This document shows, piece after piece, positions 38,176 to 58,673 of a DNA stretch of 64,000 bases (position 1 is its first letter; every line of letters starts with the position of its first letter). The stretch is taken from contig JBMNNJ010000002.1 of assembly GCA_050953885.1 (NCBI GenBank), positions 41,586-105,585 on the forward strand, in the 5' to 3' direction. The position numbers and the translations under genes were made by a program. Source of the stretch: Patescibacteria group bacterium. Lineage in GTDB: Bacteria; Patescibacteriota; Microgenomatia; 0-14-0-10-38-17. A model generated the notes under the pieces. It saw only the letters and a program-made list of their open reading frames with translations. It did not search any database and had not been told where the DNA came from.

Positions 38176-38193
38176 TCCATTCGCGTCTCTACC

Positions 38194-42002: not shown

Positions 42003-44174
42003 TTATCTCCTCACCCGGCGCGAAGCATCTCCCCGACTGGAGCGCTCATAGCGCCCTCGCGGGGAAGAAAAATGACTTAAGCGGGGACGTTCTTGATGCT
42101 CTTGAGGCTGGTTTGATCCATCTAAAATCATCGTTAAATTAATTCTTCCCTGATCATCAATTTCCCGCACCTTCACTTGTACCTTCTGGCCTTCATGAAC
42201 CACCTCGGCCGGATCTTTCACAAAATGAGTCGCCATTTGGGAAACATGAACTAAGCCCTCTTTTTGAGGCAGAATTTCCACAAACGCCCCAAAAGGCCGA
42301 ATCCGTTTTACCACTCCTTCAAAAATTTCCCCCGCTTTCACTTCCCGGGTTAGGTTTTTAACCCAGTTAACGGCGCGGTTAACTTCTTCCCCATTTGTGC
42401 CGGAAATGCTTACCTCGCCATTATCCTCCACATTAACCTCGCAACCCGTTTCTTCAATAATCTGGCGAATAATTTTCCCTCCCGGCCCGATTAAACCGCC
42501 AATTTTTTCCGGATCAATTTTCACCAAGGCCACCTTAGGCGCGTACTGGGAAACTTTTTCTCGCGCTTGCGGCAAAACGGCCAGCATTTTTGCCAAAATT
42601 TCCTCGCGGGCTTTCTTCGCTCTTGCCAAAACCTCATCAATGGCCGCTAAAACCAGCCCTTCATTTTTAACATCCATTTGAATGGCCGTCACCCCATTTT
42701 TCGTGCCCGTTACCTTAAAGTCCATCTCGCCGTTAAAATCCTCAATGCCGGCAATATCGGTTAAAATCGTCCATTTTTCTTGCTTACTGGCCATCCCCAA
42801 AGCAATTCCCGCCACCGGCTCCTTAATAGGCACCCCGGCATCCATCAGGGCCAAAGTTGAACCGCAAGTTGAAGCCATCGAAGTAGAGCCGTCAGATGAA
42901 AGCACCTCGGAAACCACCCGAATGGCATAAGGAAAAACATCCTTACCCGGCAAAACCGGTTCCAGGGCCTTTTCCGCCAATGCCCCGTGGCCAATTTCCC
43001 GCCTTTTGGGACCGGAGATAAAAGCGATTTCTCCCGAAGCAAAAGGAAGCATTGAATAATGATGCATATAACGTTTTGTTTCCTCGCCCTCCGGGCTTTC
43101 AATCCATTGTTCTAAGGAAAGGGGGCCTAAAGTCGCGATGGATAATACTTGCGTTTTCCCGCGGGTAAAAATAGCGCTGCCGTGAGTCCGTGGCAAAACT
43201 CCCACCTCTGCCGTAATGGGACGAATCTCATCAATTTTTCTTCCGTCCGGCCGCTCGCCTTCCAAAAGCTTTCCTCTTAACCATTTCTTAACCGCTTTCT
43301 CAAAAGCCAAACGGACCTTAATTTTGTCTTCCTCGGCAAAAGATGCCAAAACCGCTTCTTTAAGCGGGCTTAAGGCAAATTCCTCGCCCTTTCTTGCTTT
43401 CTCCCAAGCTTCTTCCAAATCTTTCTTAATTTTTTGGCTAATCTCTTTCTCAAGTTCAGGCGAAGCGTAAGAAACATAGGCCATTTTTTCCTTCCCTATC
43501 TCTTGACGCATTTTTTCGATAAAGTCAAGCAACCGTTGGGCCTCCTTAAAACCAAATTCAATTCCCGCCACCACTTTCTTTTCCTCTACCTGATTGCCTT
43601 TAGCCTCAATCATCACCACTTTTTCCCGGGTACAAGAAATTACCAAGTTAAGATCGGAAAATTCTTCGTCACCAGCCACCGGATTAATAAAATAAGTGTC
43701 CTCTTTCATCCCCACTTCCACTGTGGTTATGGGCCCCAAGAAGGGAATGTTGGAAAAAGAAAGCGCCGCCGCCGAGGCCAACGAGGCTAAAACCACCGGA
43801 TCATTCTCGCCGTCAACCGAAAGAACCGTCACCGTCACCTGAACTTCATTTAAAAACCCTTCGGGGAAAAGAGGGCGCAGAGAGCGATCAATCAACCGCC
43901 CCGCTAAAATTGCCTCATCAGTGGGCCGGCCTTCCCGCTTCACCCACCGGCTACCCTTAATCCGGCCGCCGGCATAAAGACGCTCCATATATTCAACATC
44001 AAGAGGAAAATAATCAAGATTGGTTGGATGAGGAGAGGCCACCACCGTGGCCAAAACCGCCGTCTGGCCATAAGTGGCCCACACCGCCGCGTTTGCCTGA
44101 CCAGCGAAATCACCTACTTCCAGTTTAAGCGTTCGCCCGCCGATTTCGATTTCCCGACTAATTTTTTTGGTCAT
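42003..44174 (-). CDS. pnp: polynucleotide phosphorylase
   Basis: The 723 aa ORF has two RNase PH domains, KH and S1 domains, and an Arg-rich C-terminal tail. Confidence 0.95.
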   Translation of the reverse strand: MTKKISREIEIGGRTLKLEVGDFAGQANAAVWATYGQTAVLATVVASPHPTNLDYFPLDVEYMERLYAGGRIKGSRWVKREGRPTDEAILAGRLIDRSLRPLFPEGFLNEVQVTVTVLSVDGENDPVVLASLASAAALSFSNIPFLGPITTVEVGMKEDTYFINPVAGDEEFSDLNLVISCTREKVVMIEAKGNQVEEKKVVAGIEFGFKEAQRLLDFIEKMRQEIGKEKMAYVSYASPELEKEISQKIKKDLEEAWEKARKGEEFALSPLKEAVLASFAEEDKIKVRLAFEKAVKKWLRGKLLEGERPDGRKIDEIRPITAEVGVLPRTHGSAIFTRGKTQVLSIATLGPLSLEQWIESPEGEETKRYMHHYSMLPFASGEIAFISGPKRREIGHGALAEKALEPVLPGKDVFPYAIRVVSEVLSSDGSTSMASTCGSTLALMDAGVPIKEPVAGIALGMASKQEKWTILTDIAGIEDFNGEMDFKVTGTKNGVTAIQMDVKNEGLVLAAIDEVLARAKKAREEILAKMLAVLPQAREKVSQYAPKVALVKIDPEKIGGLIGPGGKIIRQIIEETGCEVNVEDNGEVSISGTNGEEVNRAVNWVKNLTREVKAGEIFEGVVKRIRPFGAFVEILPQKEGLVHVSQMATHFVKDPAEVVHEGQKVQVKVREIDDQGRINLTMILDGSNQPQEHQERPRLSHFSSPRGRYERSSRGDASRRVRR

Positions 44175-44446
44175 TCTTTACTTTTTAAAGATAATTTACT
44201 TGTTAAAGCCTGATAGCGCTCTTTATCATTTTGCGCCAAATAATTAAGCAAGCGTCTTCTTTTGGAAACCAAAGAGAGAAGCCCTCGCCGCGAGTGAACA
44301 TCCTTAGGGTTTTCCCCCAAGTGAGCCGCCAGCTTATCAATTTGGGCGGAAAGCAAGGCCACCTGAACCTCCGGAGAACCGGTGTCTTCCTTGTCGTGAG
44401 AAAACTCTTTGATAATTTTTTCCTTTTCTTCTTTGGTTAGGGCCAT
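44171..44446 (-). CDS. rpsO: 30S ribosomal protein S15
   Basis: The 91 aa ORF has S15 motifs (GSPEVQVALLSAQIDKLAAHL..., HSRRGLL) and overlaps the pnp start, as in the canonical rpsO-pnp arrangement. Confidence 0.95.
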   Translation of the reverse strand: MALTKEEKEKIIKEFSHDKEDTGSPEVQVALLSAQIDKLAAHLGENPKDVHSRRGLLSLVSKRRRLLNYLAQNDKERYQALTSKLSLKSKE

Positions 44447-44449
44447 TCT

Positions 44450-45900
44450 GCGCGGTTAAAAAATGAAGCCTTCTTTTCTTTTAAGAAGCCCAATTTTTAC
44501 TCCTTATTTTTTAAGCTTTTCTAAGTTTAACCTAAAATTCCCCAAAAAACAAGAGGGAAATGTGCGGTGTCCAGGACATGCTATACACTTCATGAGGTTT
44601 GGGTATGAGGAATATGTAAGAAGAGTGTTAAAATTGGTGGGTGTTAATTTTGAGAGTGTAGTAAAGGGGGTGAAAAAGCATGAGTCCTGGAATCCATGGA
44701 ATCCGGATAGACTACAAGGAATTAAGAAAGATTAATCCAGAAGCAGCCAGACAAACAGTGATTGAGTATCTAAAGACTAATGGCCACAACATTGCTGATA
44801 CCGCCAGGGTTTTTAGGGTCAACAGGACAGTGGTTTATGACATCTTGGCAAAAAGCAAAGAGGGCAATCTTAAAGACAGACCCAAGATACCAAAACACCA
44901 GCCCAACAAGACACCAGCCAAGACAGAAGGTAAAGTCATTAAGGCCAAGAACAAAACCCACCTGGGGCCAAAAAGATTATCACGCTACCTTGAGAAACAT
45001 GAAGGGATTCTTGTTCCTCCAGGAACAATCAGGCACATTCTAAGGAGGAATAAAGACAGGCTTACTTACAAACTAAAATCAAACAAGAGAAGAAAACAAC
45101 CAAGGGAGTTTGTTGACTGGTATTCAGCTAAACCTTTTGAGATTGTCCAAATGGATATCAAATTCATTAGGGATCAGAAAGCCCTGACTAAAAAGCAAAT
45201 TATTCATCTTAACCAATATGATATTCCCAACTATCAATGGGGAGCCCTGGATGTTAACTCTAGGTTTAAACTAATTGCTTATTCCAAGGAAAAATCTTGG
45301 ACTAATGGTTTGTGTTTTTACCTTTGGACTATTTCCTGGTTAAGGTCTCATGGGGTTAAATCAGAGATTGCCTTTACTGTTGATAATGGTGAGGAATTTG
45401 GGGGTAGATCCTGGTTGAAGGTCAAAGAGTTAAGAAAACTGATCAGGGGTTTTGGCTGTAGATTAATCCAGAACCACAAAGGTCATCCTGAGGAGAATGC
45501 TCATTTGGAAAGAAGCCATAGAACCGATGACGAAGAGTTCTACATTCCCAGGGTCCTACAGATTAAGAGCAAAAAAGATCTCTTGAATGAGGCCCTGGGT
45601 TACATTTATTACTACAACAATGTCCGGGAACACTCATCCTTAGACTATCAAATACCCTACCAATATCTGAAAATGCAATTACCAGAGATTGATGATAACA
45701 TACGTTATGTACAACCGATTATCCTTGATGATGTCTCGGTAAAACTAGGCCCTTGGAGTGGATACAATGTCTTGGCACATCACCGAAAAAAGAAAGCAAA
45801 AGAAATTCTCAACCCTCGCTTACGCCTGAACCACGATAAATTTTGGGAGGATTAAAGTTTGTGGCCGTTGGGGCCTGAGAAAAAGAAGGGAAACGGCCTC
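44450..45900 (+). mobile_element. IS element insertion between rpsO and the DHH-like gene (ends not mapped)
   Basis: An intact transposase interrupts the conserved nusA-infB-(rbfA)-rpsO-pnp gene string. The 3-prime end of the transposase overlaps the stop region of the adjacent minus-strand gene by about 47 nt. Confidence 0.55.
44680..45855 (+). CDS. DDE (integrase-core, rve-type) transposase with N-terminal HTH; IS family uncertain (IS481/IS30-like single-ORF type)
   Basis: The 391 aa ORF has an HTH (TVIEYLKTNGHNIADTARVF), a DDE triad context (QMDIKF, ALDVNSR, ENAHLERSH) and a C-terminal NNVREHSSLDY motif. It is the only long plus-strand gene in a minus-strand operon. Confidence 0.85.
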   Translation: MSPGIHGIRIDYKELRKINPEAARQTVIEYLKTNGHNIADTARVFRVNRTVVYDILAKSKEGNLKDRPKIPKHQPNKTPAKTEGKVIKAKNKTHLGPKRLSRYLEKHEGILVPPGTIRHILRRNKDRLTYKLKSNKRRKQPREFVDWYSAKPFEIVQMDIKFIRDQKALTKKQIIHLNQYDIPNYQWGALDVNSRFKLIAYSKEKSWTNGLCFYLWTISWLRSHGVKSEIAFTVDNGEEFGGRSWLKVKELRKLIRGFGCRLIQNHKGHPEENAHLERSHRTDDEEFYIPRVLQIKSKKDLLNEALGYIYYYNNVREHSSLDYQIPYQYLKMQLPEIDDNIRYVQPIILDDVSVKLGPWSGYNVLAHHRKKKAKEILNPRLRLNHDKFWED

Positions 45901-46629: not shown

Positions 46630-48075
46630 CTATATATTTTTCTTGTATCTTATCACATCACCAACAGCAAAATCAAGACGGGGAGAAAAGACAGCGCCAA
46701 ACTCTTCTTTTGCCTTGGCTTTTTCAATGTCTTTTTTTCCTTCGCGAAGCGAGATAATTTTTGCTTCCCCCACCTTTTCCTTGCCTCGCCAAAGCTCAAC
46801 TTCTCCCCCTTTAACAATTTCTCCCCGCAAAACCTTGCCGCCCGCCACCATTTCTCCTTCCACATTGAATTTGGCCAAAATGCTTACCTCTCCCAAAATA
46901 TTTGCCTCCTCTTTTTGGGAAGAAAATCTTTTTATCTCTTCCTCTAAAGCCTCACTTAATTCGTAAATTAAATTAAAACGCTGAATCTTTACCCTCTCTA
47001 CCTCGGCTATCTCCTCGACCCCTTTCCCGCAAGAAACATTGAAGCCAAAAATTTTACCGCCAAAAGAAGACGCTAAAACCACATCCGACTCATTAATCTC
47101 TCCCACCCCCGAGTCTAAAATTGCTAATTTAGAAACGATCGGCAAGTTTAAAATTGCTTCCAAAACCCCTAAGGTGTCGGCCTTAAAAATTACCGCCAAT
47201 TTTCCCTCCGTTTCTTCAACCACTAATCTATCTTTTTGAAGACTCAATTTTTCTTCTAATTCCGCCACCTTCTTATTACTTAAAACCTTCTCTCCCACCG
47301 GCACCACGGCGGAAAAACCCAAAACTAAAACTGGCTGGCTTACTTGCGCCTTTACAATTGAACCCCCCCGATCATCAAAAATCGCCTTTACCTTTGCTTT
47401 TTGATTACCCGCCCACACTTCATCGTCTTTCTTTAGTTCTCCTTCTTGAACTAATAAACTCACCTCCGCTCCCCGCTGCGGATTAACCCCGCTTTCAATC
47501 ACCACCCCCGAAAAGGGAGCGTTAACAGGCGCCTTAAGATCATTCATCTTTGTTAAAAGCAAAATCATTTCCAAAAGGTCTTCTATCCCCGCGCCGGTTT
47601 TGGCCGAAACCGGCACCATTACCACCTCGCCCCCCCGCTCTTCAACCAAAACCCCTAAGGCCGTTAGCTGATTTTTCACTTTTTCCGGATCAGCCCCGGC
47701 AAGATCCATTTTATTTAAAGCAATTAAAAAGGGAACATTGGCTTCCTGAATATGCCGCAACGACTCTTCGGTTTGGGGCATCACCCCTTCGTTGGCGGCA
47801 ATCACCAACACCGCCAAATCGGTAACTTGGGCCCCACGAGATCGCATGTTAGCAAAGACTTCATGACCGGGAGTATCAATAAAAGTAATCTTTTCGCCCT
47901 GATATTCAATTTGATAAGCGCCAATTTTTTGGGTAATACCGCCAATTTCTTTTTGACTAATATTAGTTTGGCGAATTTTATCCAAAAGTGAAGTTTTCCC
48001 GTGATCAATATGACCTAAAAAGGCGACTACCGGCGGGCGAGGAGAAAACTGCGGGGAATAATTTTTGTCGACCAT
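46630..48075 (-). CDS. infB: translation initiation factor IF-2, short form that starts at the G domain
   Basis: The 481 aa ORF starts with the G domain (VVAFLGHIDHGKTSLLD, DTPGHEVF, NKMD). It has domain II and a C-terminal beta-barrel but no N-terminal extension. Confidence 0.9.
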   Translation of the reverse strand: MVDKNYSPQFSPRPPVVAFLGHIDHGKTSLLDKIRQTNISQKEIGGITQKIGAYQIEYQGEKITFIDTPGHEVFANMRSRGAQVTDLAVLVIAANEGVMPQTEESLRHIQEANVPFLIALNKMDLAGADPEKVKNQLTALGVLVEERGGEVVMVPVSAKTGAGIEDLLEMILLLTKMNDLKAPVNAPFSGVVIESGVNPQRGAEVSLLVQEGELKKDDEVWAGNQKAKVKAIFDDRGGSIVKAQVSQPVLVLGFSAVVPVGEKVLSNKKVAELEEKLSLQKDRLVVEETEGKLAVIFKADTLGVLEAILNLPIVSKLAILDSGVGEINESDVVLASSFGGKIFGFNVSCGKGVEEIAEVERVKIQRFNLIYELSEALEEEIKRFSSQKEEANILGEVSILAKFNVEGEMVAGGKVLRGEIVKGGEVELWRGKEKVGEAKIISLREGKKDIEKAKAKEEFGAVFSPRLDFAVGDVIRYKKNI

Positions 48076-48195
48076 ATATAAAAAGTATTAAAAAATATCC
48101 CGCCATAGGCAAAAAAAATTTTTCTGGCTATTTTGTTAAATCGCAGAATTCTTTAAAAAATTCAAAATTCAAAATTTAAAAGTCAAAGATAACGA

Positions 48196-48380
48196 ATAAA
48201 CTCAAATCTCAAATCGCAAAACTCAAAACTACAACTCAAAACTCAAATCTAAAAAACAACTTTAAGCTTTAAAAAGTTTTAACATTTACCATGTAGTTTT
48301 GCCATTTGCCATTTGCGTTTTGAGTTTATTTTTCGTGTTTATTCGTTTCCTATTCGTGTTAATTCGTGTATCTTAACAAT
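48196..48380. repeat. palindromic intergenic element, family 2, second copy (infB-nusA spacer)
   Basis: Near-identical core to the copy at 38030-38175. Confidence 0.6.
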
Positions 48381-48398
48381 TTAACAGCTTATCCCTTT

Positions 48399-49400
48399 CT
48401 ATTTCTCCTTCTTTTTCTTTCCCCCTTCTCCCTCAATATCAATCTCATAACCGGTTAATTCGGAAGCCAGGCGTACATTTTGGCCATTTTTACCAATCGC
48501 CAGAGAAAGTTGGTCCTCGGGCGCCAAAACTTTTGCCCGTTTTTCTTTTTCATCAATTTCAATTTTCAAGTTTTCGGCCGGCAGAAGAGCCGCCTCAATC
48601 ATCTCTTGGGGATTATTACTATATTGGATCACGTCAATTTTTTCTCCCCCCAAACTGTTAATCACTTGAGTAACCCGGACTCCTTTCTGACCTACACAAG
48701 CTCCCACCGGATCCACATTGCGGCGTTTAGAATAAACAGCAATTTTAGTTCGCACCCCCGGTTCCCGCGCTATTGCTCTAATCTCCACCGTTCCATTGGC
48801 AATCTCGGGCACTTCTCGCCGAAAAAGCGCTTCCACCAATTCCCTCGTGGCGCGCGAGAGAATAATTCGCCGCTCCTCTCCTTCGCCGCTAATTTCTTTA
48901 ATATAAAAATCAAATTTCACCCCCGGTAGATAATCTTCTCCTTTTAACTGCTCGCTTGGGGGCAAAAACCCGTAAGTGCGGCCAATATCAATAATCGCCT
49001 GCTTCTGATAATCATCAAAGCGGATTACTGTTCCCTGCACCACGGTGCCGATTTTCCCCTGATAATCGTCAATCACCGCCATTTTTTCCGCCTCTCTTAC
49101 TTTCTGGATAATCACCTGCTTGGCCACCTGGGTGGCAATCCGGCCAAAACCAGGCGGGGTCACCTCTTCCTTGCCTTTCTTGCCTTTAATAAAAACTTTT
49201 GCCTCACCCGTCTTCTCGTCGATAATCACCTCATAATCGCCTTCCGGGGCAACACCATTTTTTTCCTGATAATCTTTTTCAAAAGCGGCTAAGATCGCCT
49301 CAATAATTGCCTCAATAATTGCCTCGGCGTCAATGTGGCGCTCCCGAGCCAGTTCTTCCACGGCAGTGGCAAACTCAGTTCGTTGTAATGTTCTTGGCAT
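48399..49400 (-). CDS. nusA: transcription termination/antitermination factor NusA (S1 + KH domains only)
   Basis: The 333 aa ORF has the NusA N-terminal domain, S1 and two KH motifs (VGACVGQKGVRV, IGKNGQNVRLAS). Confidence 0.9.
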   Translation of the reverse strand: MPRTLQRTEFATAVEELARERHIDAEAIIEAIIEAILAAFEKDYQEKNGVAPEGDYEVIIDEKTGEAKVFIKGKKGKEEVTPPGFGRIATQVAKQVIIQKVREAEKMAVIDDYQGKIGTVVQGTVIRFDDYQKQAIIDIGRTYGFLPPSEQLKGEDYLPGVKFDFYIKEISGEGEERRIILSRATRELVEALFRREVPEIANGTVEIRAIAREPGVRTKIAVYSKRRNVDPVGACVGQKGVRVTQVINSLGGEKIDVIQYSNNPQEMIEAALLPAENLKIEIDEKEKRAKVLAPEDQLSLAIGKNGQNVRLASELTGYEIDIEGEGGKKKKEK

Positions 49401-49419: not shown

Positions 49420-49449
49420 AATATTAAAAAAGGTGGGTCGCCCCACCTT
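49420..49449 (-). terminator. rho-independent terminator-like hairpin on the minus strand, just upstream of nusA
   Basis: The minus strand reads aaggtgggGCGAcccacctt (8 bp GC-rich stem, 4 nt loop) followed by TTTTTaatat. Confidence 0.5.
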
Positions 49450-49509: not shown

Positions 49510-49895
49510 TTAAGTTAAGATTGTTTTTAATTTAACACAACCACCCCTTAAAGTCAAACACTGTGTACTGGCTGACCACATCGGCCTGCCTGCCGGCAAG
49601 GCAGGTAACACTTTAAAGAATCTTTCTTGAGCATACCCTAAGGGTGTTTGGTAATCAAGGGCTTGATGAGGACGATGAGCACGGTCTTCAATAAACCATT
49701 TAGTTAAAAAAAGATTAGCCTGACTAATGTTATCAAGCCCTACCAGGCTTGGGGACAACCATTCTTCCTGAAGAGTCCGGTTGAATCTTTCTGAGGAAGC
49801 ATTATCCTTAGGCTGTCTTACCCAAGAAGAGACTGGGGTGATATTAAGATCTTGACAGGCTTTGGTAAAGTGTCCGGCAGGAAAGTTTCTTTGGC
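49510..49895 (-). pseudogene. 3-prime remnant of an IS481-like transposase (integrase-core C-terminus only)
   Basis: The minus-strand translation reads ...KACQDLNITPVSSWVRQPKDNASSERFNRTLQEEW...HRPHQALDYQTPL, the C-terminal rve region. There is no N-terminal HTH or first Asp. Confidence 0.6.
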
Positions 49896-50185
49896 CATTT
49901 TAAATTAGAAGCCGGAGGCCTAAATCGTTTTAAATTACTTGGAGAACTGATTGAATACATTTACCAACAAGGATATTATTAAATAAACGAATTCACTCAG
50001 TTCTTAAAATGACGCCAACAGAAAAAAGAAAGGGGATGACTGTCTAAAAAATTAGGTACTTGACATTTTTATGCCCTCTAATTCTTCTTTATCAAATATT
50101 CCCCACCCCTTCAAAACCAGCGGTGGCTTTAATTTTGAGTTTTTGTTTGAATTTATTCTATCCATTGTTTTATTTTTGGTAAAAC

Positions 50186-52714
50186 TTATAAAGAAATTAT
50201 AAGCGCATCAGGGGATAGTTCCGAAGGCAGTTTAGCAACTAACTCAATTTTTCCTACTTTAGAAAAATTCCTAATGTCATCTAAAAATGGTCTTAGAAGA
50301 TTCTGCGTCTCAGAATCGCAAATAATTAAAAGTAAAGGAAATGCCCCCCCCAATCTTATGTTTCTCTCTGTCTTGCCTTTTCTGATTTTTTCTAGTATAG
50401 AAAGAGCTGTCTCTGCCCCTTTCTTTATCTTATTATTGATCTTGGTCTTTTGGGCATCCAGAGAGAACCAAGAACAAAGATGAATACTTGAGACTCTTTC
50501 GTGTTGGTAAAAAAACCCTTTGTCTTTAGCGGACCTTAATCTTAAACCTGTGGGAGATTGTTCACAATAACTATGATACATCTCCTCTGTGATATGTGGC
50601 AAAAAGGGCGCCGCCATTTTAAGAACAGCTAGATATGCATGATATAAAGCATACTGGGCAGAGCGTCGACGTTCCTCGTCTTGTCCATAAATTCTCCCCT
50701 TAGCTATTTCTAAATAATCATCACAAAAATCTCTCCAGAAAAATTCCTCAAATATTTGTTTTGCCTTTCCAAATTCATATCTTTCAAATTCGCGTGCTAT
50801 CTTGGCAGTCGTTTCTTGAACTTTGGACAAGATCCAGCAATCAAAAGCCTCAAGAACTTCTTGGGCTATTTCCTCCTGGGGGTTAAAATCCTGTAAATTA
50901 GAAATGGCAAATTTCCCCGCGTTATATAATTTTGTCACTAATTTCTCACCCTTTTTTATTTCCTTTTCCTCAAAATAAACATCTTTGCCCAATGCTCCTC
51001 CAGACATGGCATAACGGATAGCGTCAGCTGAATATTGATCAATCAATTTTTCCGGGTCGTACTGGCCTCCCCCCGTTTTTTTACTTATTTTCTCCCCCTT
51101 TTTAGCCAATATATGACCGGAAATCATAATATCTTTCCAAGGAACTTCATTATGAAGTAGAAGCCCCATCAAAATAGTATAAGTCGCCCAGGTTCTAATA
51201 ATATCGTGAGCCTGAGGTCTCATTGACATAGGATACATCTTGCCGGTTAAAGAACCATTAAGAGGATGGTTGTTATTAATATCGGGTGTTAAAGCAGAAG
51301 TAAACCATGTGTCTAGAACACCCGTTTCTGGCTGGATATTCTTCGACCGACAGCGAGAGCAATTTCTTTCTTTTTTATCTAGTCGAGGATCAATTGGTAA
51401 CTCTTCGGGTTTCGGCAGTATAATTTCCTCGCAGTCTTGGCAATAAAAAAGAGGGATAGGAATACCGAAAAATCGCTGTCTTGAGATACACCAATCCCAT
51501 CCAAGTCCTTCAACCCAATTAAGATATCTTTTTTTCATATGCGGAGGATACCAATTAATTTGTTCAGCGGCGGTCAGAAGCTGAGGCTTCATTTCTAAAA
51601 TTTTAACAAACCATTGAGTAATAGGAATAATTTCAATCGGTTCTCCGCAGCGCTCATGAACACTAATTTCATGGGTGATGGGCTTTTCTTCTTTAATTAA
51701 TCCCTTTTTTCTCAACTCGCTTACTAATATCCTTCTTCCTTCCACAACAGATTTTCCTTCCATCCCGGAGATACCAACCTCGGTGGTAAACCTTCCTTTT
51801 TTATCAAGAATGATTCTTTCTGGAAGATCGTGAATTCTTGCCCAATAAACATCAGTGCTATCTCCATAGGTGCAACACATTACCGCTCCTGTTCCTTTTT
51901 CCATGGAAACTTTATCATCAGCAAGAACCTTAACTTTTGATCCCAAGGGCGTTTCTACTTCGGTTCCCACGATATCTTTGTATCTTTTGTCATCAGGATG
52001 GATAAAGACAGCCACGCAGGCAGGAAGAAGTTCAGGCCTCGTGGTAGCAATTATTAACTCGCCTCTACCGGGGTTTCTAAAAATTAAATCATAAAAAATC
52101 CCTGAGCACTCCTTATCTTCAACTTCTGCCTGGGCGACCGATGTTTGGCATTCAGGACAATATAGAGCTGGGGATTCTTTCTTGTAAATTAGCCCCTTTT
52201 CAAAAAGCTTTATAAAGTTCTCTTGAGATAATCTTTGTACTTCTGAAGAGATTGTAGAATATTCTAACCGTAGGTCCCATCTAAAACCAAGTTTTCGAAA
52301 CAAATCTTCGTATTTCGGTACGAAACGAGCAACAACTTTAAGACATCTTCGAGTAAATTCCTCCGTCCCAACCACAGAAGGATCTATATTCTCTTCCTTT
52401 TCAACTAATCTCTCGGTAGGAAGACCATTGTTATCAAGACCAAAGGGATAACGAACATTAAATCCCGCCATTCTTCGGTAAGCGGCTATAACCTCTGCCT
52501 GAGTGTAGGAAAAAACATGTCCCAAATGAAGCTTTCCGGAAATAGTTGGAGGCGGAGTATCAATAGTAAAAAGCGATCCAGAGGCTTCTGGATTAAAACG
52601 AAAAATTTCTTTCTGTCCCCAAAATTTTTGCCAATACGGTTCTTGAGAGTGATGGTTATATCTTTCGGAAAATTCTGTTCCTCTTCTCATAATTCTTTCT
52701 TCATCCATAATCAC
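50186..52714 (-). CDS. valS: valyl-tRNA synthetase, archaeal/eukaryotic-like type
   Basis: The 842 aa ORF reads IDTPPPTISGKLHLGHVFSYTQAEVIAAYRRMAGFNVRYPFGLDNNGLPTE, which matches the archaeal-type ValRS N-terminus. The WCISRQ motif and KISKK (a KMSKS variant) are also present. Its codons are strongly AT-rich compared with the flanking operons. Confidence 0.8.
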   Translation of the reverse strand: MIMDEERIMRRGTEFSERYNHHSQEPYWQKFWGQKEIFRFNPEASGSLFTIDTPPPTISGKLHLGHVFSYTQAEVIAAYRRMAGFNVRYPFGLDNNGLPTERLVEKEENIDPSVVGTEEFTRRCLKVVARFVPKYEDLFRKLGFRWDLRLEYSTISSEVQRLSQENFIKLFEKGLIYKKESPALYCPECQTSVAQAEVEDKECSGIFYDLIFRNPGRGELIIATTRPELLPACVAVFIHPDDKRYKDIVGTEVETPLGSKVKVLADDKVSMEKGTGAVMCCTYGDSTDVYWARIHDLPERIILDKKGRFTTEVGISGMEGKSVVEGRRILVSELRKKGLIKEEKPITHEISVHERCGEPIEIIPITQWFVKILEMKPQLLTAAEQINWYPPHMKKRYLNWVEGLGWDWCISRQRFFGIPIPLFYCQDCEEIILPKPEELPIDPRLDKKERNCSRCRSKNIQPETGVLDTWFTSALTPDINNNHPLNGSLTGKMYPMSMRPQAHDIIRTWATYTILMGLLLHNEVPWKDIMISGHILAKKGEKISKKTGGGQYDPEKLIDQYSADAIRYAMSGGALGKDVYFEEKEIKKGEKLVTKLYNAGKFAISNLQDFNPQEEIAQEVLEAFDCWILSKVQETTAKIAREFERYEFGKAKQIFEEFFWRDFCDDYLEIAKGRIYGQDEERRRSAQYALYHAYLAVLKMAAPFLPHITEEMYHSYCEQSPTGLRLRSAKDKGFFYQHERVSSIHLCSWFSLDAQKTKINNKIKKGAETALSILEKIRKGKTERNIRLGGAFPLLLIICDSETQNLLRPFLDDIRNFSKVGKIELVAKLPSELSPDALIISL

Positions 52715-52878
52715 AATTTAGGAATAGCATTTGGTAAATTTTATTATAATAGTCATTACATATCAAGAGAGTGTACTGGCTGACCACATCGGCCTGCCTG
52801 CCGGCGAGGCAGGCCGATGTATCTTGGCGCGGGCGCAAACCGCGCGGACTATTTACCCGCCGTAGGCGGGCCTGTTCC

Positions 52879-53715
52879 CTATTCAAAATTTATCTTGGCT
52901 AATTTCAAGCTAGGGTTTTGACTTTTACCCAAAAAAAACCTTACTAACGAAGGGTAAGGGGAATCTTTTTTCGTAAAATAAAGCTTGAGAGAACGTCCGC
53001 GGCTTAATTTTTTCTCCAAATCGTCATGCCTTTTAAAATAATCCCTCAATTTTTCAGCGACAATTTCTCCCTGAGTAATAATTCTTACTCCCGGCATTAA
53101 CGCTTCAATTTGGCGGGCAATTGAATTATAGTGAGTACAGCCTAAAACTAAAACGTCAACTTTTTCTTTTTTTAAAGGCGCCAAGGAAGCACTTAAAATT
53201 TTTTTAAAACCTTGACTTTTAAAATCTCCTTTTTCAATTCTCTCCACTAATCCCGGGCAATCTTTTTGACAAAAAATAAGTTCTTTTTGGGGAAAAACTT
53301 TCTTAAAATCATTATAAAAAATATTGGCCTTAATGGTATTCGTCGTCCCGATAAAACCAATTTTCCCAAAATGATGATCAGCCAAAAATTCGCTCGTCGG
53401 GCGAATAATCCCTAAAATTTTAATTTTTTTTCCGAATTCCTTCTGAATTGTCGGGAGGGCCACCGCCGTCACCGTATTGCAGGCAAAAATTACCAAAGCG
53501 CAGTCTTTCTTTATAAAAAAGGGGATAATTTTCCGCGCCCAAAAAATAATCTCCTTACAAGGGCGGTTACCGTAAGGAACATGAAGATTATCTCCTAAAT
53601 AAAGATAATCATAAAAAGGAAGCTCTTTTCTTAAGGCTTTTAGAATAGATAAACCCCCCAAGCCGGAATCAAAAACGCCAATTTTCATAAAAATAATTTT
53701 AACAAAAAAGCGCAA
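52879..53715 (-). CDS. murI: glutamate racemase (the true start is probably the internal Met at about 53688)
   Basis: The 278 aa ORF has IGVFDSGLGGLSIL, ACNT and GCTHY motifs. Confidence 0.85.
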   Translation of the reverse strand: MRFFVKIIFMKIGVFDSGLGGLSILKALRKELPFYDYLYLGDNLHVPYGNRPCKEIIFWARKIIPFFIKKDCALVIFACNTVTAVALPTIQKEFGKKIKILGIIRPTSEFLADHHFGKIGFIGTTNTIKANIFYNDFKKVFPQKELIFCQKDCPGLVERIEKGDFKSQGFKKILSASLAPLKKEKVDVLVLGCTHYNSIARQIEALMPGVRIITQGEIVAEKLRDYFKRHDDLEKKLSRGRSLKLYFTKKDSPYPSLVRFFLGKSQNPSLKLAKINFE

Positions 53716-53757
53716 TATTGCCCCAAAACAAAGAAAACTTTTTGCTATAATAAAGCT

Positions 53758-54162
53758 ATGTCTGAAAACGAACCAACAGAAACTATTCCCCCTTCTGAAA
53801 ATACCAAAGAAATGTCACTTTGCCCCCCAAAAACAGATTCTCTTAAAGAATGGGAAACTTATTTAAAAGAAATGGGCTTGGCAGTAGATCGGGGTGAAAA
53901 TCCCCAAGAAATTACCTTAAGCACTTTGGCTCGCTTCGGTGAAAAAAACCGCCCTCCCGATTATAATCATGAAAACGATCTATATATCGGTAATACTCCA
54001 GAACTCTACGATGAGGATGCGGTCCAATGCGACGCCAGAATTGGCGCCGATGCTGCCCGGCAAAAGCCGGAAGAATTTGAAAAATTTATCAAAAAATCGC
54101 TAGCAGGACAAAGCAAAAAAGGTAATAAAGAGAAAAATAACGTTAATGACGCCGGAGTCTAG
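53758..54162 (+). CDS. acidic hypothetical protein (134 aa)
   Basis: A TATAAT lies 7 nt upstream of the ATG, suggesting a leaderless or short-leader mRNA. The ORF overlaps the downstream methyltransferase gene by 17 nt. Confidence 0.4.
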   Translation: MSENEPTETIPPSENTKEMSLCPPKTDSLKEWETYLKEMGLAVDRGENPQEITLSTLARFGEKNRPPDYNHENDLYIGNTPELYDEDAVQCDARIGADAARQKPEEFEKFIKKSLAGQSKKGNKEKNNVNDAGV

Positions 54163-54973
54163 CGCCTATCATCAAGATGAAAATTTGACCAAATTAGCCC
54201 AGTTAGCACAAGGTGTCTTCCGGCTTTCCTCCCCCGAGAGAAATTGGATGTTTTACGATTCCGAGCATCCCAAGGAAAAGATATTCAATCTTTATCAAAT
54301 ATTTTCCCAAATTCGCACTAATTTTTCCCAAAAAAACGCCTCTTTTTTGGATTGCGGTAGCGGCAATGGTCTGGTTACTCTTATTGCCAACATCGCCGGA
54401 TTTGAAAAAGTTTACGGTATAGAAAAAAACCGGCCGTTATTTCTTGAAGCTCAAAATAATCTTTCTTACTGCCAAGAACAGAACTTACTTAAAAATGGTG
54501 TCGTCTATTTCTTCAACGCCTCTTATTACCAGCTTGTTAATCATCACGAAGACGTTGTTGCCTCTTGCCTTAGGGAACTTAATAATTTTTATGAGCAAGA
54601 CGGAATTTTTTATAGCTCAAGCCTCTTAGAATATGCTCGGGCCTTATTAGAAGAAAAAAATCATTCTCTTAAAAAAATGGTCGGAAACTACTTGTCCCCC
54701 CCTGATAGCAATAAAAATTTAAAAAATTCCTCGCTTTTAAGAGACGGCCAGCTAACTGCTGATTTTGTTTATATTTATCCCGCCGACTTATTTTTTAGCC
54801 GCGTCTTTTTGCCCCAAATAGCAAAACTTTTAAAAAAAGAGGCTTCTTTAGGAATTCTTTCTCCGGCTGATGATAAAAGCGAAATTGAAAAGGATTTACT
54901 TCAAAAAAAAGAAGAAATTAAACTCTCCGCCAAGCCTGTTTCGCTGGTTTTATCAATTTTTCAAAAGAGATAA
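54146..54973 (+). CDS. class I SAM-dependent methyltransferase, substrate unknown
   Basis: The 275 aa ORF has motif I (FLDCGSGNGLVTL) and the acidic post-I residue context. Confidence 0.55.
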   Translation: MTPESSAYHQDENLTKLAQLAQGVFRLSSPERNWMFYDSEHPKEKIFNLYQIFSQIRTNFSQKNASFLDCGSGNGLVTLIANIAGFEKVYGIEKNRPLFLEAQNNLSYCQEQNLLKNGVVYFFNASYYQLVNHHEDVVASCLRELNNFYEQDGIFYSSSLLEYARALLEEKNHSLKKMVGNYLSPPDSNKNLKNSSLLRDGQLTADFVYIYPADLFFSRVFLPQIAKLLKKEASLGILSPADDKSEIEKDLLQKKEEIKLSAKPVSLVLSIFQKR

Positions 54974-55043: not shown

Positions 55044-55736
55044 ATGATTGAAAAAAGCAAAGAAAAAACCGCCAAGAAAGCTTCCGGAAAAGTAAAAGCA
55101 AAAGTTAGCCAGCCAAAGACGATGAGTCAAGAAAAAACCCCGGCAGAAGAAAAATCTTTCAAAATTTCCGTCAAAAAGCTGATTATTTTCTTGGCGATTA
55201 TTATCATTGGTTTTCTCCTTTATCAAAATAAAGATTTATTTATCGTCGCCACTGTTAATAACCGCCCCATTAGCCGCCAACGTTTTAACCAGCAAATAGA
55301 ATCCCAATATGGCCAGCAGGTTTTGGAAACCATGATTAATGAGGAGCTGATTAAGCAGGCCGCCAAGGATCAAAACATTGTTATTGATCAGGAAAAAATT
55401 AACGAGGAAATGGCTAAAATTGAAAAAAGCCTGCCGGAGGGAATGAACCTTGACCAGGCTCTCCAAATGCAAGGAATGAGCCGGGAAAATCTGGAAGAGC
55501 AAATGCGGTTGCAACTGGCCATTGAGGAGATTTTGGCGCCTAAGATTCAAATTACCGATGAAGAATTAAAACAATATATTGAAGAAAATAAAGATTATTT
55601 CTCGGCAACACAAGAAGCGCAAATCAGGGAAGAGGCCCAAGAAGGCCTGCGCCAACAAAAATTAAACCAGAACTTCCAAGCATGGCTTCAGGAATTAACC
55701 GAGAAAGCCAATATTAACCGCTGGCTTAAGTTTTAA
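55044..55736 (+). CDS. membrane-anchored SurA-N/PrsA-like chaperone domain protein (no PPIase domain)
   Basis: The 230 aa ORF has an N-terminal TM segment ([14 protein letters not shown]) followed by a helical SurA N-terminal-like domain ([18 protein letters not shown]...). Confidence 0.5.
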
Positions 55737-56569
55737 AGCCCCCACGCCTTTAATTTTTCCTCCTGTTCACGAGTTAATTTTTGGGGCATTTTAAGTTTCA
55801 ACCTCACATATAAATCCCCCCGACCGCGACCGTTAAAACGAGGTACGCCTTGGCCACGCAAACGAATCATTATTCCCGGCGCTGTCCCCGGCCGAATTCG
55901 TAACTTTAAATTCTTCCCTTCAACCGTCGGCACTTCAATTTTATCTCCAAAAACCGCTTGGGTAAAACTTATTTCCTGCTCTACAATTAAATCATCACCC
56001 TGACGAATAAAGTGGGGGTCGGGCAAAACTTCAACCACCAGGTAAAAATCGGGAAATTTAATCCGCGAACCGTTATCTACCCCGGCGGGAATTTTAATTT
56101 TTCTCCGTTTTCCCTCGATTTCTACCTCTTTTTGTGTTCCCAAAATTGCTTCTCTCTGCGTTATCCTCACCTGATAAGTAGGAAGCCTTTGCTGACGATA
56201 GCCGGAGAAGGGGGAGCGTTGGCCAAAAAAACTTTCAAAAATCTCAAAGGGGTCGGAAAAGCCACCAAAAAGATCCTCTAAATCACCAAAGTTAACAGTA
56301 TAAGAAAATGGGCCTTCTTGCCCTCCCGCCCCGGGGAAACCCTGCCTAAACGCTTCATGGCCAAACTGATCATACGCTTGCCGCTTGGCCGGATCAGAAA
56401 GCACTTCGTAGGCCTCGTTAATCTCCTTAAATTTTTTTTCTGCCTCCGCATCCTTATTACGATCCGGGTGCCATTTTAGCGCCAAACGACGGTAAGCTTT
56501 TTTAATCTCCTCAACGCTAGCATCGCGGGAAACACCCAAAATCTCGTAAAAATCTTTATTATCGGCCAT
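55733..56569 (-). CDS. dnaJ: DnaJ-family co-chaperone lacking the zinc-finger domain (CbpA/type II-like)
   Basis: The J domain ([13 protein letters not shown]...HPDRN), a G/F region and C-terminal substrate-binding domains are present. There are no CxxCxGxG repeats. Confidence 0.85.
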
Positions 56570-56741
56570 AATATTTCAAACATTATGGAATAGCGCAGTT
56601 TACTGTGCACCAATTATTCGCTCATTCGTATCCATTCGTTTTTAATTCGTGTCAATTCGCGTTTTTTAATAATTTAGCAATTTGCTTATCATGCCTCATG
56701 AATAGGGGAAATTTGAAGCAAAGAATTTACCTTCGTCTTTC

Positions 56742-58673
56742 TTAGCTAACCACTTCGCCTTCTTCGGGCTCATCCTCTCCTTTTTTCTCATCCCCTTCGC
56801 CTTTATTTTCATCTTGAGGTTGGTTCGGGGTCTGCTCTGCACCGTTCTGTTGTGGGGCCTGATAAACCTCCTGACTTATTTTCTGAAGCTCTTCTAAAAG
56901 CTCGTTGGTTCTTCTTTCTACCTCCTCTTTCTCCGGTTTTTCTTGTTTCAAAAGCTCCTGAAGAGATTTTATTTTCTCTTCCACCGCCTCTTTCTCCGCC
57001 GGTTTTACTTTCTCGCCTAAATCCTTAATTGTTTTCTCCGCCGTATAAACAGCATTTTCGGCTTTATTTTTTGCCTCAATAAGTTCTTGCTGACGCCTGT
57101 CTTCCTCGGCGTGAGCCTCCGCTTCGGCCCGCATTCGCTCGACCTCTTCCTCGGAAAGCCCCGTCGCTCCCTTGATAACAATACTTTGCGACCGCCCTGT
57201 TGCCTTATCTTTGGCGGTGACGTTTAAAATGCCATTAGCATCGATATCAAAAGTAACCTCAATTTGGGGTATTCCTCGCGGCGCCGGCGGAATCCCGTCG
57301 AGGATAAATTCACCTAAAGATTTATTATCTTTAGCTAAGGGTCGTTCTCCTTGAATAACATGAACCTCCACCTGAGTTTGACTATCAGCCGCGGTGGTGA
57401 AAACCTGCGACCGCGAAACAGGAATAGTGGTATTTTTTTCAATTAAAGGCGCCACCACTCCCCCTAAAGTTTCCACTCCTAAGGTTAGGGGAGTAACATC
57501 AAGTAAAACCACATCTTTTACCTCTCCTGACAAAACTCCCCCCTGAATGGCCGCTCCTAAAGCCACCGCTTCGTCCGGATTAACCGACTGGTTAGGTTTT
57601 TTACCAAAAAACTCCTCCACAATCTGCTGCACCTTGGGCATTCGCGTCTGACCACCCACCAAAATCACCTCATTAATGTCAGAGGCTTTCATTTTCGCGT
57701 CTTTTAAGCAGGCTTCCACTGGCGGAGTTAAGCGCGCCAAAAGATCAGCAGTAAGTTGCTCTAATTTAGCCCGGCTTAACTTTACCGATAAATGAAGAGG
57801 GCCTTCTTTTCCTTGAGTGATAAAGGGAAGATTAATCTCTGTTTCGGCGGCAGTGGAAAGCTCAACTTTAGCCTTTTCCGCCGCATCTTTTATCCGTTGC
57901 ATTGCCTGACTGTCGGTGGCCAAATTTATCCCGTATTCTTTCTTAAATTCTCCCACCACATATTCCTCAATTTTCCGGTCCCAATCGTCTCCTCCCAAAT
58001 GGGTATCCCCATTGGTCGCCTTTACCTCATAAACCCCCTCCCCAAGCTCCAAAATAGAAATGTCAAACGTTCCCCCACCCAAATCAAAAACCGCTACCGT
58101 TTGCACTTCTTTCTTATCCAGACCATAAGCAAGCGCGGCCGCCGTAGGCTCATTAATAATCCGGGCCACTTTCAGACCGGCGATTTCCCCCGCTTCCTTG
58201 GTTGCCTGCCGTTGGGAATCGTCAAAATAAGCGGGGACAGTAATCACTGCCTGTTCTACTTTCTCGCCCAAATAAGCCTCAGCATCTTTTTTGGCTTTTT
58301 GCAAAATCTTGGCGGAAATTTCTTGAGGCGTAAATTGACGACCATCTTCTGTTTCCACCACCGCCAAATCATTTTTCCCTCTGACCACTTTATAGGGAAG
58401 CCATTTAATATCCTCCTGCACCAAAGGGTCGCTAAAACGGCGTCCCATTAACCGCTTCACCGAGAAAAAGGTGTTTTTGGGATTAATAACCATCTGCCGT
58501 TTAGCCGGCTCACCCACCAAGCCTTTAATTGGTTCCACCACCGACGGGATTAACCGCCCTCCCTCCGCGGTGGTGATAATTACCGGTTTACCGCCTTCCA
58601 TAATCGCCACCGCCGAGTTGGTGGTGCCCAAATCAATACCAATAATTTTGGTAGTTACTTTTTCGTTAGCCAT
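56742..58673 (-). CDS. dnaK: chaperone DnaK (Hsp70)
   Basis: The 643 aa ORF has [21 protein letters not shown] and the full NBD+SBD, with an acidic EEGEVVS C-terminus. Confidence 0.97.

What the first reader, a model, noticed from the sequence alone, without database searches (positions are those of the whole stretch)
49510..52870. Archaeal-type, AT-rich valS flanked by roughly 50 bp GC-rich direct repeats and a transposase remnant: candidate horizontal acquisition
The ValRS N-terminus (IDTPPPTISGKLHLGHVFSY...FGLDNNGLPTE) matches archaeal ValRS rather than bacterial ValRS. Its codon usage is conspicuously AT-rich compared with the flanking nusA and infB. The sequence gtgtactggctgaccacatcggcctgcctgccggc(a/g)aggcagg occurs on both sides (49562-49612 and 52775-52826) as a direct repeat. 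An IS481-like transposase 3-prime remnant lies at 49510-49895, and murI and the following genes are also AT-rich. It looks like a compositionally foreign segment delivered or rearranged by mobile DNA. Displacement of an essential synthetase by a xenolog is known elsewhere but is worth documenting here.
Basis: partly seen in the sequence, partly recalled or inferred. Interest (0 to 1): 0.65.

Follow-up and report, generated by a model that had tools for sequence, protein, structure and literature searches.

The report
valS carried on decayed composite transposon
The repeats flanking this valyl-tRNA synthetase gene are the ends of two decayed copies of one insertion sequence, which moved the gene as a unit to a new site in a Shapirobacteria (CPR) genome; the synthetase is the normal type for this bacterial group, not a recent import from archaea.

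Summary
The sequence observations hold. There is a 43-nt direct repeat (42/43 identical) on both sides of valS, a transposase 3' remnant, a non-classical ValRS, and the lowest GC3 in the window.

The repeats are terminal inverted repeats of an ~883-bp IS481-like insertion sequence. Full copies were recovered from metagenomes.
- Copy 1 (from 49564) belongs to a truncated IS that keeps the last 105 transposase codons.
- Copy 2 (52772-52837) is a 66-bp fusion of both IS ends.

A related strain (91% nt identity) has an empty site that joins window 52839 directly to 49561. Sister alleles carry a 6-bp target duplication (CGCGGT) at the two outer IS ends. So the whole 3,277-bp block, 49562-52838, is one IS-bounded insertion between murI and nusA.

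Relatives with 65-97% identical ValRS have a nine-gene radical-SAM operon 20 nt after valS. The window keeps only the first 33 codons of that operon, so about 9 kb was deleted.

The ValRS is the NF009687 type, as in every CPR relative tested. All named close homologues are Patescibacteria. A recent archaeal transfer is therefore not supported, while relocation by mobile DNA is. An old transfer within the CPR, and a second valS elsewhere in the genome, cannot be excluded. Interest is modest.

The parts
49562..52838 (-). The whole inserted block: IS-bounded, composite-transposon-like unit carrying valS (3,277 bp)
   Evidence: Contig L055 (NusA 97% aa) aligns at 88.8% to window 53312-52839 and then directly at 91.4% to 49561-46876. 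Nothing of this block is present in it.
49564..49878 (-). Truncated IS481-like insertion sequence (right arm): terminal inverted repeat plus the last 105 codons of the transposase. Judged by target duplications, the strict IS terminus is CTGG at 49568.
   Evidence: tblastn gives 87% identity to residues 155-259 of the L048 transposase. DNA homology to full IS copies L046/L047 stops at ~49877-49879. End alignment A1. rve_3 and IS481 hits.
49563..49605 (+). It is the IS terminal inverted repeat: outer part (TGTA)CTGGCTGACC, inner part ACATCGGCCTGCCTGCCGGCAAGGCAGG, continuing as TAACACTT into the IS.
49879..50065 (.). 187-nt filler of unknown origin at the deletion junction
   Evidence: No match to any fetched locus or to the rest of the window beyond chance 14-20-mers. 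It is conserved (93-100%) only in contigs that share the deletion.
50052..50165 (-). 37-codon ORF. Its first 33 codons (50066-50165) are the 5' stub of the radical SAM/SPASM gene that follows valS in relatives.
   Evidence: Window MDRINSNKNSKLKPPLVLKGWGIFDKEELEGIK|MSST* against L001 MNRINSNKNSKLKPPPVLKGWGIFDKEELEDIK|KKKLLRH.... Nucleotide homology to L001/L002 ends at 50066.
50186..52708 (-). valS, valine--tRNA ligase, 840 aa, intact
   Evidence: NF009687 923 bits, full-length match 4-792/801. HLGH at residue 61, TTRPE at 222, KISKK at 540. Exactly this protein is found on 14 contigs.
52738..52766 (-). Promoter-like site for valS (TTGATA-17-TAAAAT), 5 nt inside the left IS arm
   Evidence: Homology to L001 and L002 begins exactly at this -35 box.
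52772..52837 (+). 66-bp miniature IS (left arm): one inverted repeat fused to the last part of the other. The transposase gene has been deleted between the short direct repeats (GCCGGC.)AGGCAGG that lie inside the two inverted repeats.
   Evidence: Alignment A1 aligns this element in both orientations with both ends of full IS copies. It contains a 14-bp perfect hairpin at 52786-52820, the only GC-rich hairpin with a stem of at least 9 bp in the window. DNA fold -19.7 kcal/mol, z = -2.7.
52771..52813 (+).
52839..52844 (-). Target-site copy CGCGGT (ACCGCG on the + strand) abutting the outer IS terminus on the murI side
   Evidence: The empty site L055 reads GTCCG-CGCGGT-GTTTGAC. Alleles L045/L016 read GTCCG-CGCGGT|TTGCGCC...CCAG|CGCGGT-GTTTGAC. 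L056 starts at GCGCGGTGTTTGAC.
49562..49567 (+). Window-specific junction variant on the nusA side. TGTGTA replaces the CGCG of the second target-site copy and extends the identity with copy 2 by 5 nt. I infer this reflects gene conversion between the two IS ends.
   Evidence: Comparison of the window with L045, L016, L055 and L056.

Best explanation
The window comes from a Candidatus Shapirobacteria (Microgenomates, CPR/Patescibacteria) genome. Its valS is the ordinary ValRS of this radiation.

In the ancestral arrangement of this clade, valS is followed 20 nt later by a nine-gene radical-SAM/aldolase/ligase/PLP operon. Two copies of an ~883-bp IS481-like insertion sequence came to bracket valS and this operon. 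The IS has ~50-bp inverted repeats, each containing a GC-rich stem-loop.

The bracketed unit was then inserted between murI and nusA and made a 6-bp target duplication (CGCGGT). This could have happened by transposition from the two outer IS ends. It could also have happened by recombination of an IS-flanked circle into an IS already sitting at that site.

The unit later decayed.
- The left IS lost its interior through recombination between short repeats inside its inverted repeats. That left a 66-bp fusion of the two ends.
- A deletion of about 9 kb removed the operon from codon 34 of its first gene, together with the first ~60% of the right-hand transposase gene. A 187-nt filler marks the junction.

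valS and its promoter were spared, presumably because valS is needed.

Shown:
- the identity of the repeats as IS ends
- the empty site
- the target duplication in sister alleles
- the operon stub
- the CPR-wide ValRS type

Inferred:
- the order of events
- that an L001-like structure at this same site was the direct precursor
- that this is the only valS in the genome
For: (1) Full IS copies in three unrelated contexts (L046-L048) share both termini with the window repeats, while the flanks beyond the termini are unrelated (alignment A1). The transposase is a rve/rve_3 DDE enzyme whose best model is IS481.

(2) The window remnant is 87% identical to residues 155-259 of that transposase.

(3) The empty site in L055 joins 52839 to 49561 with no IS sequence.

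(4) CGCGGT occurs once in L055 and twice in L045/L016, directly abutting the outer IS termini. The single IS in L047 shows a comparable 6-7-bp duplication, GCTTTA/GCTTTTA. The miniature IS has no duplication of its own.

(5) L001 (97.4% nt) and L002-L007 (92% nt) match the window only from 52766 to 50066, then continue into the operon. The 33-codon stub matches their first gene. L001 ends in the same IS, with its transposase-5' end facing the operon. That orientation leaves exactly the window's remnant after one deletion.

(6) Contig L015 stops exactly at the 50066 breakpoint, which suggests both variants coexist in that sample.

(7) The same architecture appears in independent assemblies L010-L012, L016 and L045.

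(8) CPR origin of the protein. valS-operon linkage with SurA_N upstream in relatives at 65% identity.
Against: - The window's own nusA-side junction lacks the second target-site copy (TGTGTA instead of CGCG). The duplication is therefore seen only in sister alleles.
- Neither IS arm encodes a working transposase, and no movement of this exact unit to another site was seen.
- L001's flanks are unknown, because the contig ends in the repeats. That it sits at the same site is inference.
- The empty site rests on a single 3.2-kb contig from a lineage ~9-11% diverged.
- valS GC3 is 2 SD below the window mean. valS plus the operon is also AT-rich relative to its flanks in L049. That leaves room for an older foreign origin.
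- Whether a second valS exists cannot be seen from 64 kb.
Confidence: 0.78

Rival explanations
1. Horizontal transfer within the CPR. On this view valS, with its radical-SAM operon, is a compositionally foreign island. It was acquired by this Shapirobacteria lineage from a lower-GC Patescibacteria donor, carried in by IS elements, and replaced the original valS.
For: - valS has the lowest GC3 of 52 ORFs (0.319, z = -2.05).
- valS plus the operon has GC3 of 0.22-0.35 in L001, L002 and L049. In L049 the flanking SurA_N and Metallophos genes are at 0.41-0.42.
- Loci of ValRS relatives are 34-37% GC. The window is 43.6% GC, and loci of NusA relatives are 40-42% GC.
- No ValRS hit in the 62-72% identity range comes from an NCBI Shapirobacteria MAG, whereas ProRS and NusA hits at similar depth do.
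- The block is demonstrably mobile.
Against: - The identity ladder of ValRS parallels that of ProRS.
- valS differs by 8% in nucleotides from L002, similar to the 9-11% divergence of nusA/infB/murI from L055.
- The SurA_N-valS neighbourhood is shared with relatives at 65% identity.
- Low GC3 also marks murI and two ORFs outside the mobile block.
- GC3 in this genome tracks expression class: EF-Tu, EF-G and ribosomal proteins are highest.
- Full-length 2.5-kb genes are under-represented in short contigs, so the counts of relatives are unreliable.
Confidence: 0.15
2. The repeats are copies of a host REP-like palindromic element that an IS targets. On this view the IS inserted into copy 1, and copy 2 is an intact target.
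For: - Copy 2 contains a perfect 14-bp palindrome with both 'flank types'.
- Two independent IS junctions (window copy 1 and the L001 end) break the palindrome after AGGCAGG.
Against: - Full IS copies carry the 36-nt segment at both ends as an inverted repeat. The right ends always read CCTGCCT-T-GCCGGC, the reverse complement of the left ends. A simple insertion into a target cannot produce that.
- Target duplications lie outside the whole ~50-bp ends.
- The empty site L055 contains no palindrome at all.
- Only one such hairpin exists in 64 kb, and only four metagenome contigs hold the motif.
Confidence: 0.03
3. Recent inter-domain transfer: valS was acquired directly from an archaeon and displaced a bacterial-type valS.
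For: The protein belongs to the NF009687 type rather than PRK05729 and lacks the bacterial C-terminal coiled coil. It is compositionally extreme.
Against: - All named close homologues are Patescibacteria from several classes, and they share the same model, motifs and length.
- No archaeal name appears among the top 120 hits, which reach down to 52% identity.
- The operon linkage is conserved within the clade.
Confidence: 0.02

Closest known systems
Composite (compound) transposons built from two IS copies in direct orientation (for example Tn9 with IS1); own knowledge
   Same: - Two copies of one IS bracket unrelated cargo.
- A target duplication lies at the outer ends only.
- An empty-site allele exists.
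- The arms can decay once the cargo is fixed.
   Different: - The cargo is an essential housekeeping aminoacyl-tRNA synthetase, originally with a biosynthetic-looking operon, rather than a resistance or catabolic gene.
- Both arms are now dead: one is a 66-bp fusion of ends and the other a 315-bp stump.
- The host is a streamlined CPR bacterium.
- No second insertion site was observed.
IS481 family insertion sequences
   Same: - A single DDE (rve/rve_3) transposase with an N-terminal HTH region. Its best NCBIfam model is IS481.
- Terminal inverted repeats.
- A target duplication of about 6 bp.
- The reading frame runs into the inverted repeat.
   Different: - It scores below the family's curated cut-off (123 vs 224 bits).
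- It is very small (883 bp, ~260 aa).
- It has unusually long (~50 bp) inverted repeats with an internal 7-bp-stem GC hairpin.
- The L048 copy needs a frame change near the start, which may mean it is degenerate.
Bacteria carrying the archaeal-like (type 2) ValRS, for example Rickettsia; own knowledge (Woese et al. 2000), which I could not retrieve in the paper library
   Same: A non-classical ValRS subtype in a bacterium.
   Different: Here the subtype is shared by all CPR relatives examined. It is therefore a property of the radiation, not of this genome.
Aminoacyl-tRNA synthetase genes embedded in biosynthetic clusters as self-resistance copies (for example mupM/IleRS, borO/ThrRS); own knowledge
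   Same: In relatives, valS sits 20 nt upstream of a conserved multi-enzyme operon, and the pair moves together.
   Different: - No product, inhibitor or second housekeeping valS is known.
- The window strain kept valS and lost the operon, which fits a housekeeping role better.
MITEs / solo inverted-repeat remnants of IS elements
   Same: The 66-bp element consists only of the two IS ends and has no coding capacity.
   Different: It was seen at one locus only and has no target duplication of its own, so it is a decayed transposon arm rather than an amplified MITE.

Membership tests
Valine--tRNA ligase, NF009687/PRK13208 type | Whole-protein score above the curated cut-off of the equivalog model | tested here: met
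   923 bits against a cut-off of 738, covering model positions 4-792 of 801.
Valine--tRNA ligase, NF009687/PRK13208 type | Class I catalytic motifs (HIGH-like, KMSKS-like) and the editing-domain TTRPE motif are intact | tested here: met
   HLGH at 61, KISKK at 540, TTRPE at 222. The same variants occur in 108 of 120 relatives.
Classical bacterial ValRS (PRK05729 type with C-terminal coiled coil) | Score above the model cut-off, and a C-terminal coiled-coil domain | tested here: not met
   537 bits against a cut-off of 704. Pfam finds only tRNA-synt_1 and Anticodon_1. 327 bits to Thermus ValRS.
Recently acquired archaeal xenolog | Nearest relatives are archaeal, or the gene is absent from sister lineages of the host phylum | tested here: not met
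   Every named hit among the top 120 is Patescibacteria. Seven relatives from Microgenomates and Parcubacteria hit the same model at 808-915 bits. A tree with archaeal sequences could not be built, because none were retrievable.
IS481 family IS | DDE transposase that reaches the family model cut-off | tested here: inconclusive
   IS481 is the best model, but the score is 123 bits against a cut-off of 224 for the full copy and 51 bits for the window remnant. rve and rve_3 domains are present.
IS481 family IS | Terminal inverted repeats and short target-site duplications | tested here: met
   ~50-bp imperfect inverted repeats (alignment A1). 6-7-bp duplications in L047 and in L045/L016. No duplication is evident for L048.
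Composite transposon | Cargo bracketed by two copies of the same IS | tested here: met
   Miniature IS at 52772-52837 and truncated IS at 49564-49878, in the same orientation.
Composite transposon | Target duplication at the outer ends of the whole unit, and an empty-site allele | tested here: met
   CGCGGT occurs once in L055 and twice in L045/L016. In the window allele itself the nusA-side copy is replaced by TGTGTA.
Composite transposon | A functional transposase supplied by an arm, and evidence of movement to more than one site | tested here: not met
   Only 105 C-terminal codons remain. All long contigs with this exact ValRS show the same site.
Self-resistance aaRS in a biosynthetic gene cluster | A second, housekeeping copy of the same aaRS in the genome, and a cluster product that inhibits it | not testable with these tools
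   There is no second valS in the 64 kb. The rest of the genome was not available. The operon proteins reach no curated family cut-off.

The most novel reading that the evidence does not exclude
valS and the adjacent radical-SAM operon could form a mobile producer/immunity (or tRNA-dependent biosynthesis) module that hops between Shapirobacteria genomes on IS arms. On this reading the window's valS is an orphan immunity copy, kept after the biosynthetic genes were deleted, and a separate housekeeping valS sits elsewhere in the genome.
Probability: 0.08. Interest if true: 0.65.

Novelty: new member of a known kind. Interest (0 to 1): 0.33.

Why it matters
The case shows that an essential translation gene can be picked up and relocated by insertion sequences even in a very small, streamlined CPR genome. 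It also shows that such events leave recognisable scars: fused IS ends, gene stubs and filler DNA.

It corrects a tempting misreading. The 'archaeal-looking' ValRS is a lineage-wide trait of Patescibacteria, not evidence of transfer into this genome.

It also flags an uncharacterised radical-SAM operon that stays linked to valS across a family-level clade and is polymorphic (present or deleted) between near-identical strains.

None of this changes a general principle. The mechanisms are textbook.

Tried and rejected
- **Genome scan.** I scanned GTDB genome contigs for the 20-nt hairpin core. It returned 28 single chance hits in unrelated GC-rich genomes and none in Patescibacteria.
- **Metagenome scan.** This was productive but found only four contigs, so the IS is rare in that collection.
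- **Rfam.** Searches of the window and of L002/L009/L055 found only tRNAs. The GC-rich repeat is not a known RNA.
- **REP-like target hypothesis.** I held it until the full IS copies showed the motif as an inverted repeat at both ends.
- **att sites of an integrated element.** No integrase is present, and the repeat is contiguous with the transposase remnant.
- **Other IS in the window.** The remnant is only 31% identical to the full IS481-like transposase at 44680-45855, so they are different elements. It is also unrelated to the rve transposases flanking valS in L002.
- **Filler 49879-50065.** No source was found.
- **Taxon names.** The listing of cluster members added only two uninformative taxon labels ('Patescibacteria group bacterium' and 'Candidatus Paceibacterota bacterium') and nothing in the second look-up. 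'Candidatus Paceibacterota' turned out to be a synonym for the whole phylum, so it does not separate Parcubacteria from Microgenomates.
- **Literature.** Searches for archaeal-type ValRS in CPR found nothing usable, and Woese et al. 2000 is not held.
- **Operon function.** None of the eight proteins scanned reaches a curated family cut-off.
Full report
**Setting**

The window is 43.6% GC and almost all of its genes are on the minus strand. Around the finding the order is as follows:
- pnp 42003-44174
- rpsO 44171-44446
- a full IS481-like transposase 44680-45855 (+ strand)
- a hypothetical gene
- infB 46630-48075
- nusA 48399-49400
- the region in question
- murI 52879-53715
- two hypothetical genes
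- a SurA_N-like gene
- dnaJ, dnaK, grpE, hrcA
- murJ

The ProRS of the window is 86% identical to a protein named Candidatus Shapirobacteria. The NusA relatives at 61-63% identity carry the same name. Shapirobacteria belong to the Microgenomates group of Patescibacteria.

**Checking the observation**

- The direct repeat exists. Window 49563-49605 and 52771-52813 match at 42 of 43 positions. There are two matches in the window against none in 100 shuffles.
- The transposase remnant exists.
- valS is intact: 840 aa, 50186-52708 (-). Its best model is NF009687/PRK13208, 923 bits against a cut-off of 738. It falls below the cut-off of PRK05729, has no C-terminal coiled-coil domain, and scores only 327 bits against Thermus ValRS.
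- valS GC3 is 0.319, the lowest of 52 ORFs (z = -2.05). murI and the next two ORFs are also low.

So the observations are largely correct.

**What the repeat is**

A metagenome scan for the hairpin core returned four contigs. One, L045, repeats the window architecture. The other three (L046-L048) hold the motif in unrelated contexts, each time as the end of an element of about 0.9 kb.

In L048 the element is 883 bp and carries a ~260-aa rve/rve_3 DDE transposase on the opposite strand. Its best family model is IS481, but the score is below the cut-off.

Aligning all the ends (A1) shows ~50-bp imperfect terminal inverted repeats.
- The outer parts differ: CTGGCTGACC against CTG(C/T)GCCGGCCAAGAT.
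- The inner 36 nt are shared: ACATCGGCC(T/C)GCCTGCCGGC(R)AGGCAGGTAACACTT. This segment itself contains a 7-bp stem-loop.
- Sequences outside the ends are unrelated between copies.

Window copy 1 is therefore the inverted repeat of a truncated IS. IS homology runs from 49564 to about 49878, and residues 155-259 of the transposase are retained at 87% identity.

Window copy 2 (52772-52837) aligns in both orientations with both kinds of end. It is one inverted repeat up to AGGCAGG, joined to the last 7 nt and the outer part of the other. That is the expected result if the interior was lost by recombination between the short direct repeats (GCCGGC.)AGGCAGG inside the two inverted repeats. The fusion creates the perfect 14-bp palindrome at 52786-52820. 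This is the only GC-rich hairpin of that size in the window.

I first thought the palindrome was a host REP-like target of the IS. The full copies refute that, because the segment is present at both IS ends in inverted orientation and the target duplications lie outside it.

**The block is an insertion**

Contig L055 comes from a strain whose NusA is 97% identical. It aligns to window 53312-52839 (murI end, 88.8%) and then without interruption to 49561-46876 (nusA and infB, 91.4%).

At the joint it reads GTCCG-CGCGGT-GTTTGAC, with no IS sequence. The 3,277 bp from 49562 to 52838 are simply absent.

In the sister alleles L045 and L016, CGCGGT is present on both sides and directly abuts the two outer IS termini. 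L056 begins at the same flank. A single IS in L047 has a comparable duplication, GCTTTA/GCTTTTA. The miniature IS has no duplication of its own.

The outer ends therefore derive from one insertion event, and the unit behaves as a composite transposon. An IS-flanked circle recombined into a resident IS would give the same result.

In the window allele the nusA-side copy of the duplication is replaced by TGTGTA. This lengthens the identity with copy 2 by five bases. I interpret it as gene conversion between the two ends, but that is inference.

**What was lost**

Contigs encoding ValRS at 97% (L001) and 88% (L002-L007) amino-acid identity match the window only from 52766 to 50066. 52766 is the -35 box of a promoter-like site, 5 nt inside the left arm.

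From there they continue into a co-oriented operon:
- radical SAM/SPASM
- nitroreductase
- RraA-like
- HMGL-like aldolase
- PaaK-like ligase
- radical SAM/SPASM
- a long PLP enzyme
- radical SAM

. No protein of this operon reaches a curated family cut-off.

The window's 37-codon ORF (50052-50165) is the first 33 codons of the first operon gene.

L001 ends in the same IS, with the transposase-5' end facing the operon. A single deletion from codon 34 of the first gene to the middle of that transposase gene would give exactly the window structure. The deletion would be about 8.5 kb of operon plus about 0.57 kb of IS. A 187-nt filler of unknown origin lies at the junction.

Contig L015 stops exactly at the 50066 breakpoint. 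That suggests both variants coexist in that sample.

The deleted architecture recurs in independent assemblies from several samples, so it is not an assembly artefact.

**Is valS foreign?**

The 120 best homologues are 52-98% identical. All named ones are Patescibacteria: Microgenomates group, Patescibacteria group, Uhrbacteria and Nealsonbacteria. Seven of them, tested individually, hit NF009687 at 808-915 bits and miss the PRK05729 cut-off. 108 of 120 share the HLGH and KISKK motifs. The non-classical type is thus a trait of the radiation, and a recent archaeal origin is not supported.

Within the clade:
- The valS-operon linkage persists to 65% identity (L049/L050). There the upstream neighbour is a SurA_N-like gene homologous to window 55044-55736.
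- The identity ladder of ValRS resembles that of ProRS.
- The 8% nucleotide divergence of valS from L002 is similar to the 9-11% divergence of the flanking genes from L055.

These points favour relocation of a native gene.

Against that:
- valS and the operon are AT-rich wherever they are found, including relative to their flanks in L049.
- No labelled Shapirobacteria ValRS appeared among the close hits.

An older transfer between CPR lineages therefore remains possible. I give it about 0.15.

No second valS lies in the 64 kb. The rest of the genome could not be examined.

**Wider context**

Three other Shapirobacteria (NusA 63-65%) have hrcA next to nusA: SurA_N, dnaJ, dnaK, grpE, hrcA | nusA, infB..., rpsO, pnp... 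ProRS.

In the window's genus that five-gene block is inverted, and hyp275, hyp134 and murI lie between it and nusA. L055 shows murI already adjacent to nusA before valS arrived.

The low-GC3 genes outside the mobile block therefore belong to an earlier rearrangement, not to the IS-bounded unit.

**Verdict**

- The archaeal-xenolog part is not supported.

The feature is a decayed composite transposon, built from a new small IS481-like element, that relocated an essential synthetase gene. This is a new member of a known kind and of modest interest.

Noticed in passing
window 1140-1310, 3255-3316, 4131-4275, 4481-4539, 5850-5937, 7602-7753, 11481-11536, 12035-12088, 12738-12973, 26871-27085, 27793-28011, 32059-32386, 33009-33309, 36225-36289, 38018-38188, 39966-40047, 40732-40926, 48148-48404, 56616-56697, 58738-59015, 60460-60670: Almost every intergenic region carries AT-rich repeat blocks of 50-250 bp. 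They are built from 7-8-nt sub-units (such as GCAAAAC/TCAAAAG, ACGAATG, TTGCTAAA) and occur in both orientations, with pairs up to 110 nt long at 83-95% identity. The valS block has none. This is a conspicuous genome-wide repeat family of unknown role.
   Followed up: no
window 44463-45855: A second, apparently intact IS481-like element (391-aa transposase, only 31% identical to the remnant) lies between rpsO and the gene after infB. Three other Shapirobacteria have no IS there.
   Followed up: partly
window 55044-60250, compared with L052-L054: The hrcA-grpE-dnaK-dnaJ-SurA_N block is inverted relative to three other Shapirobacteria, in which hrcA abuts nusA. hyp275, hyp134 and murI (52879-54973, all with low GC3) sit between it and nusA.
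   Followed up: partly
L001 2609-10985; L002 4225-13521; L049 12557-20894: An uncharacterised operon follows valS by 20-28 nt in relatives from 65% to 97% ValRS identity. It encodes three radical SAM enzymes (two with SPASM), a nitroreductase, an RraA-like protein, an HMGL-like aldolase, a PaaK-like ligase and a 558-aa PLP enzyme. No protein reaches a curated NCBIfam cut-off. In L002 it is bracketed and interrupted by two copies of yet another rve IS, 59% identical to each other.
   Followed up: partly
L009 1-606; L002 1-728: There are 600-700 nt of strongly GC-rich non-coding sequence in otherwise ~36% GC DNA. In L009 it lies upstream of valS, and in L002 upstream of the IS that precedes valS. 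The two stretches are not homologous to each other and have no Rfam match.
   Followed up: partly
window 49430-49449 (- strand) and 49529-49557 (- strand): Between the IS end and nusA there is a promoter-like site (TTGACT-17-TAAATT with TG), followed by a terminator-like hairpin (AAGGTGGGGCGACCCACCTT plus a T run) just upstream of the nusA start. This could be a leader or attenuator. Both are conserved in the empty-site strain L055.
   Followed up: no
L010, compared with the window: In JGI contig Ga0534105_01174, which encodes an identical ValRS, nusA, infB and pnp are called as truncated or split genes (123, 373, and 502+168 aa). In the window they are intact. This probably reflects frameshift errors in that assembly.
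   Followed up: no
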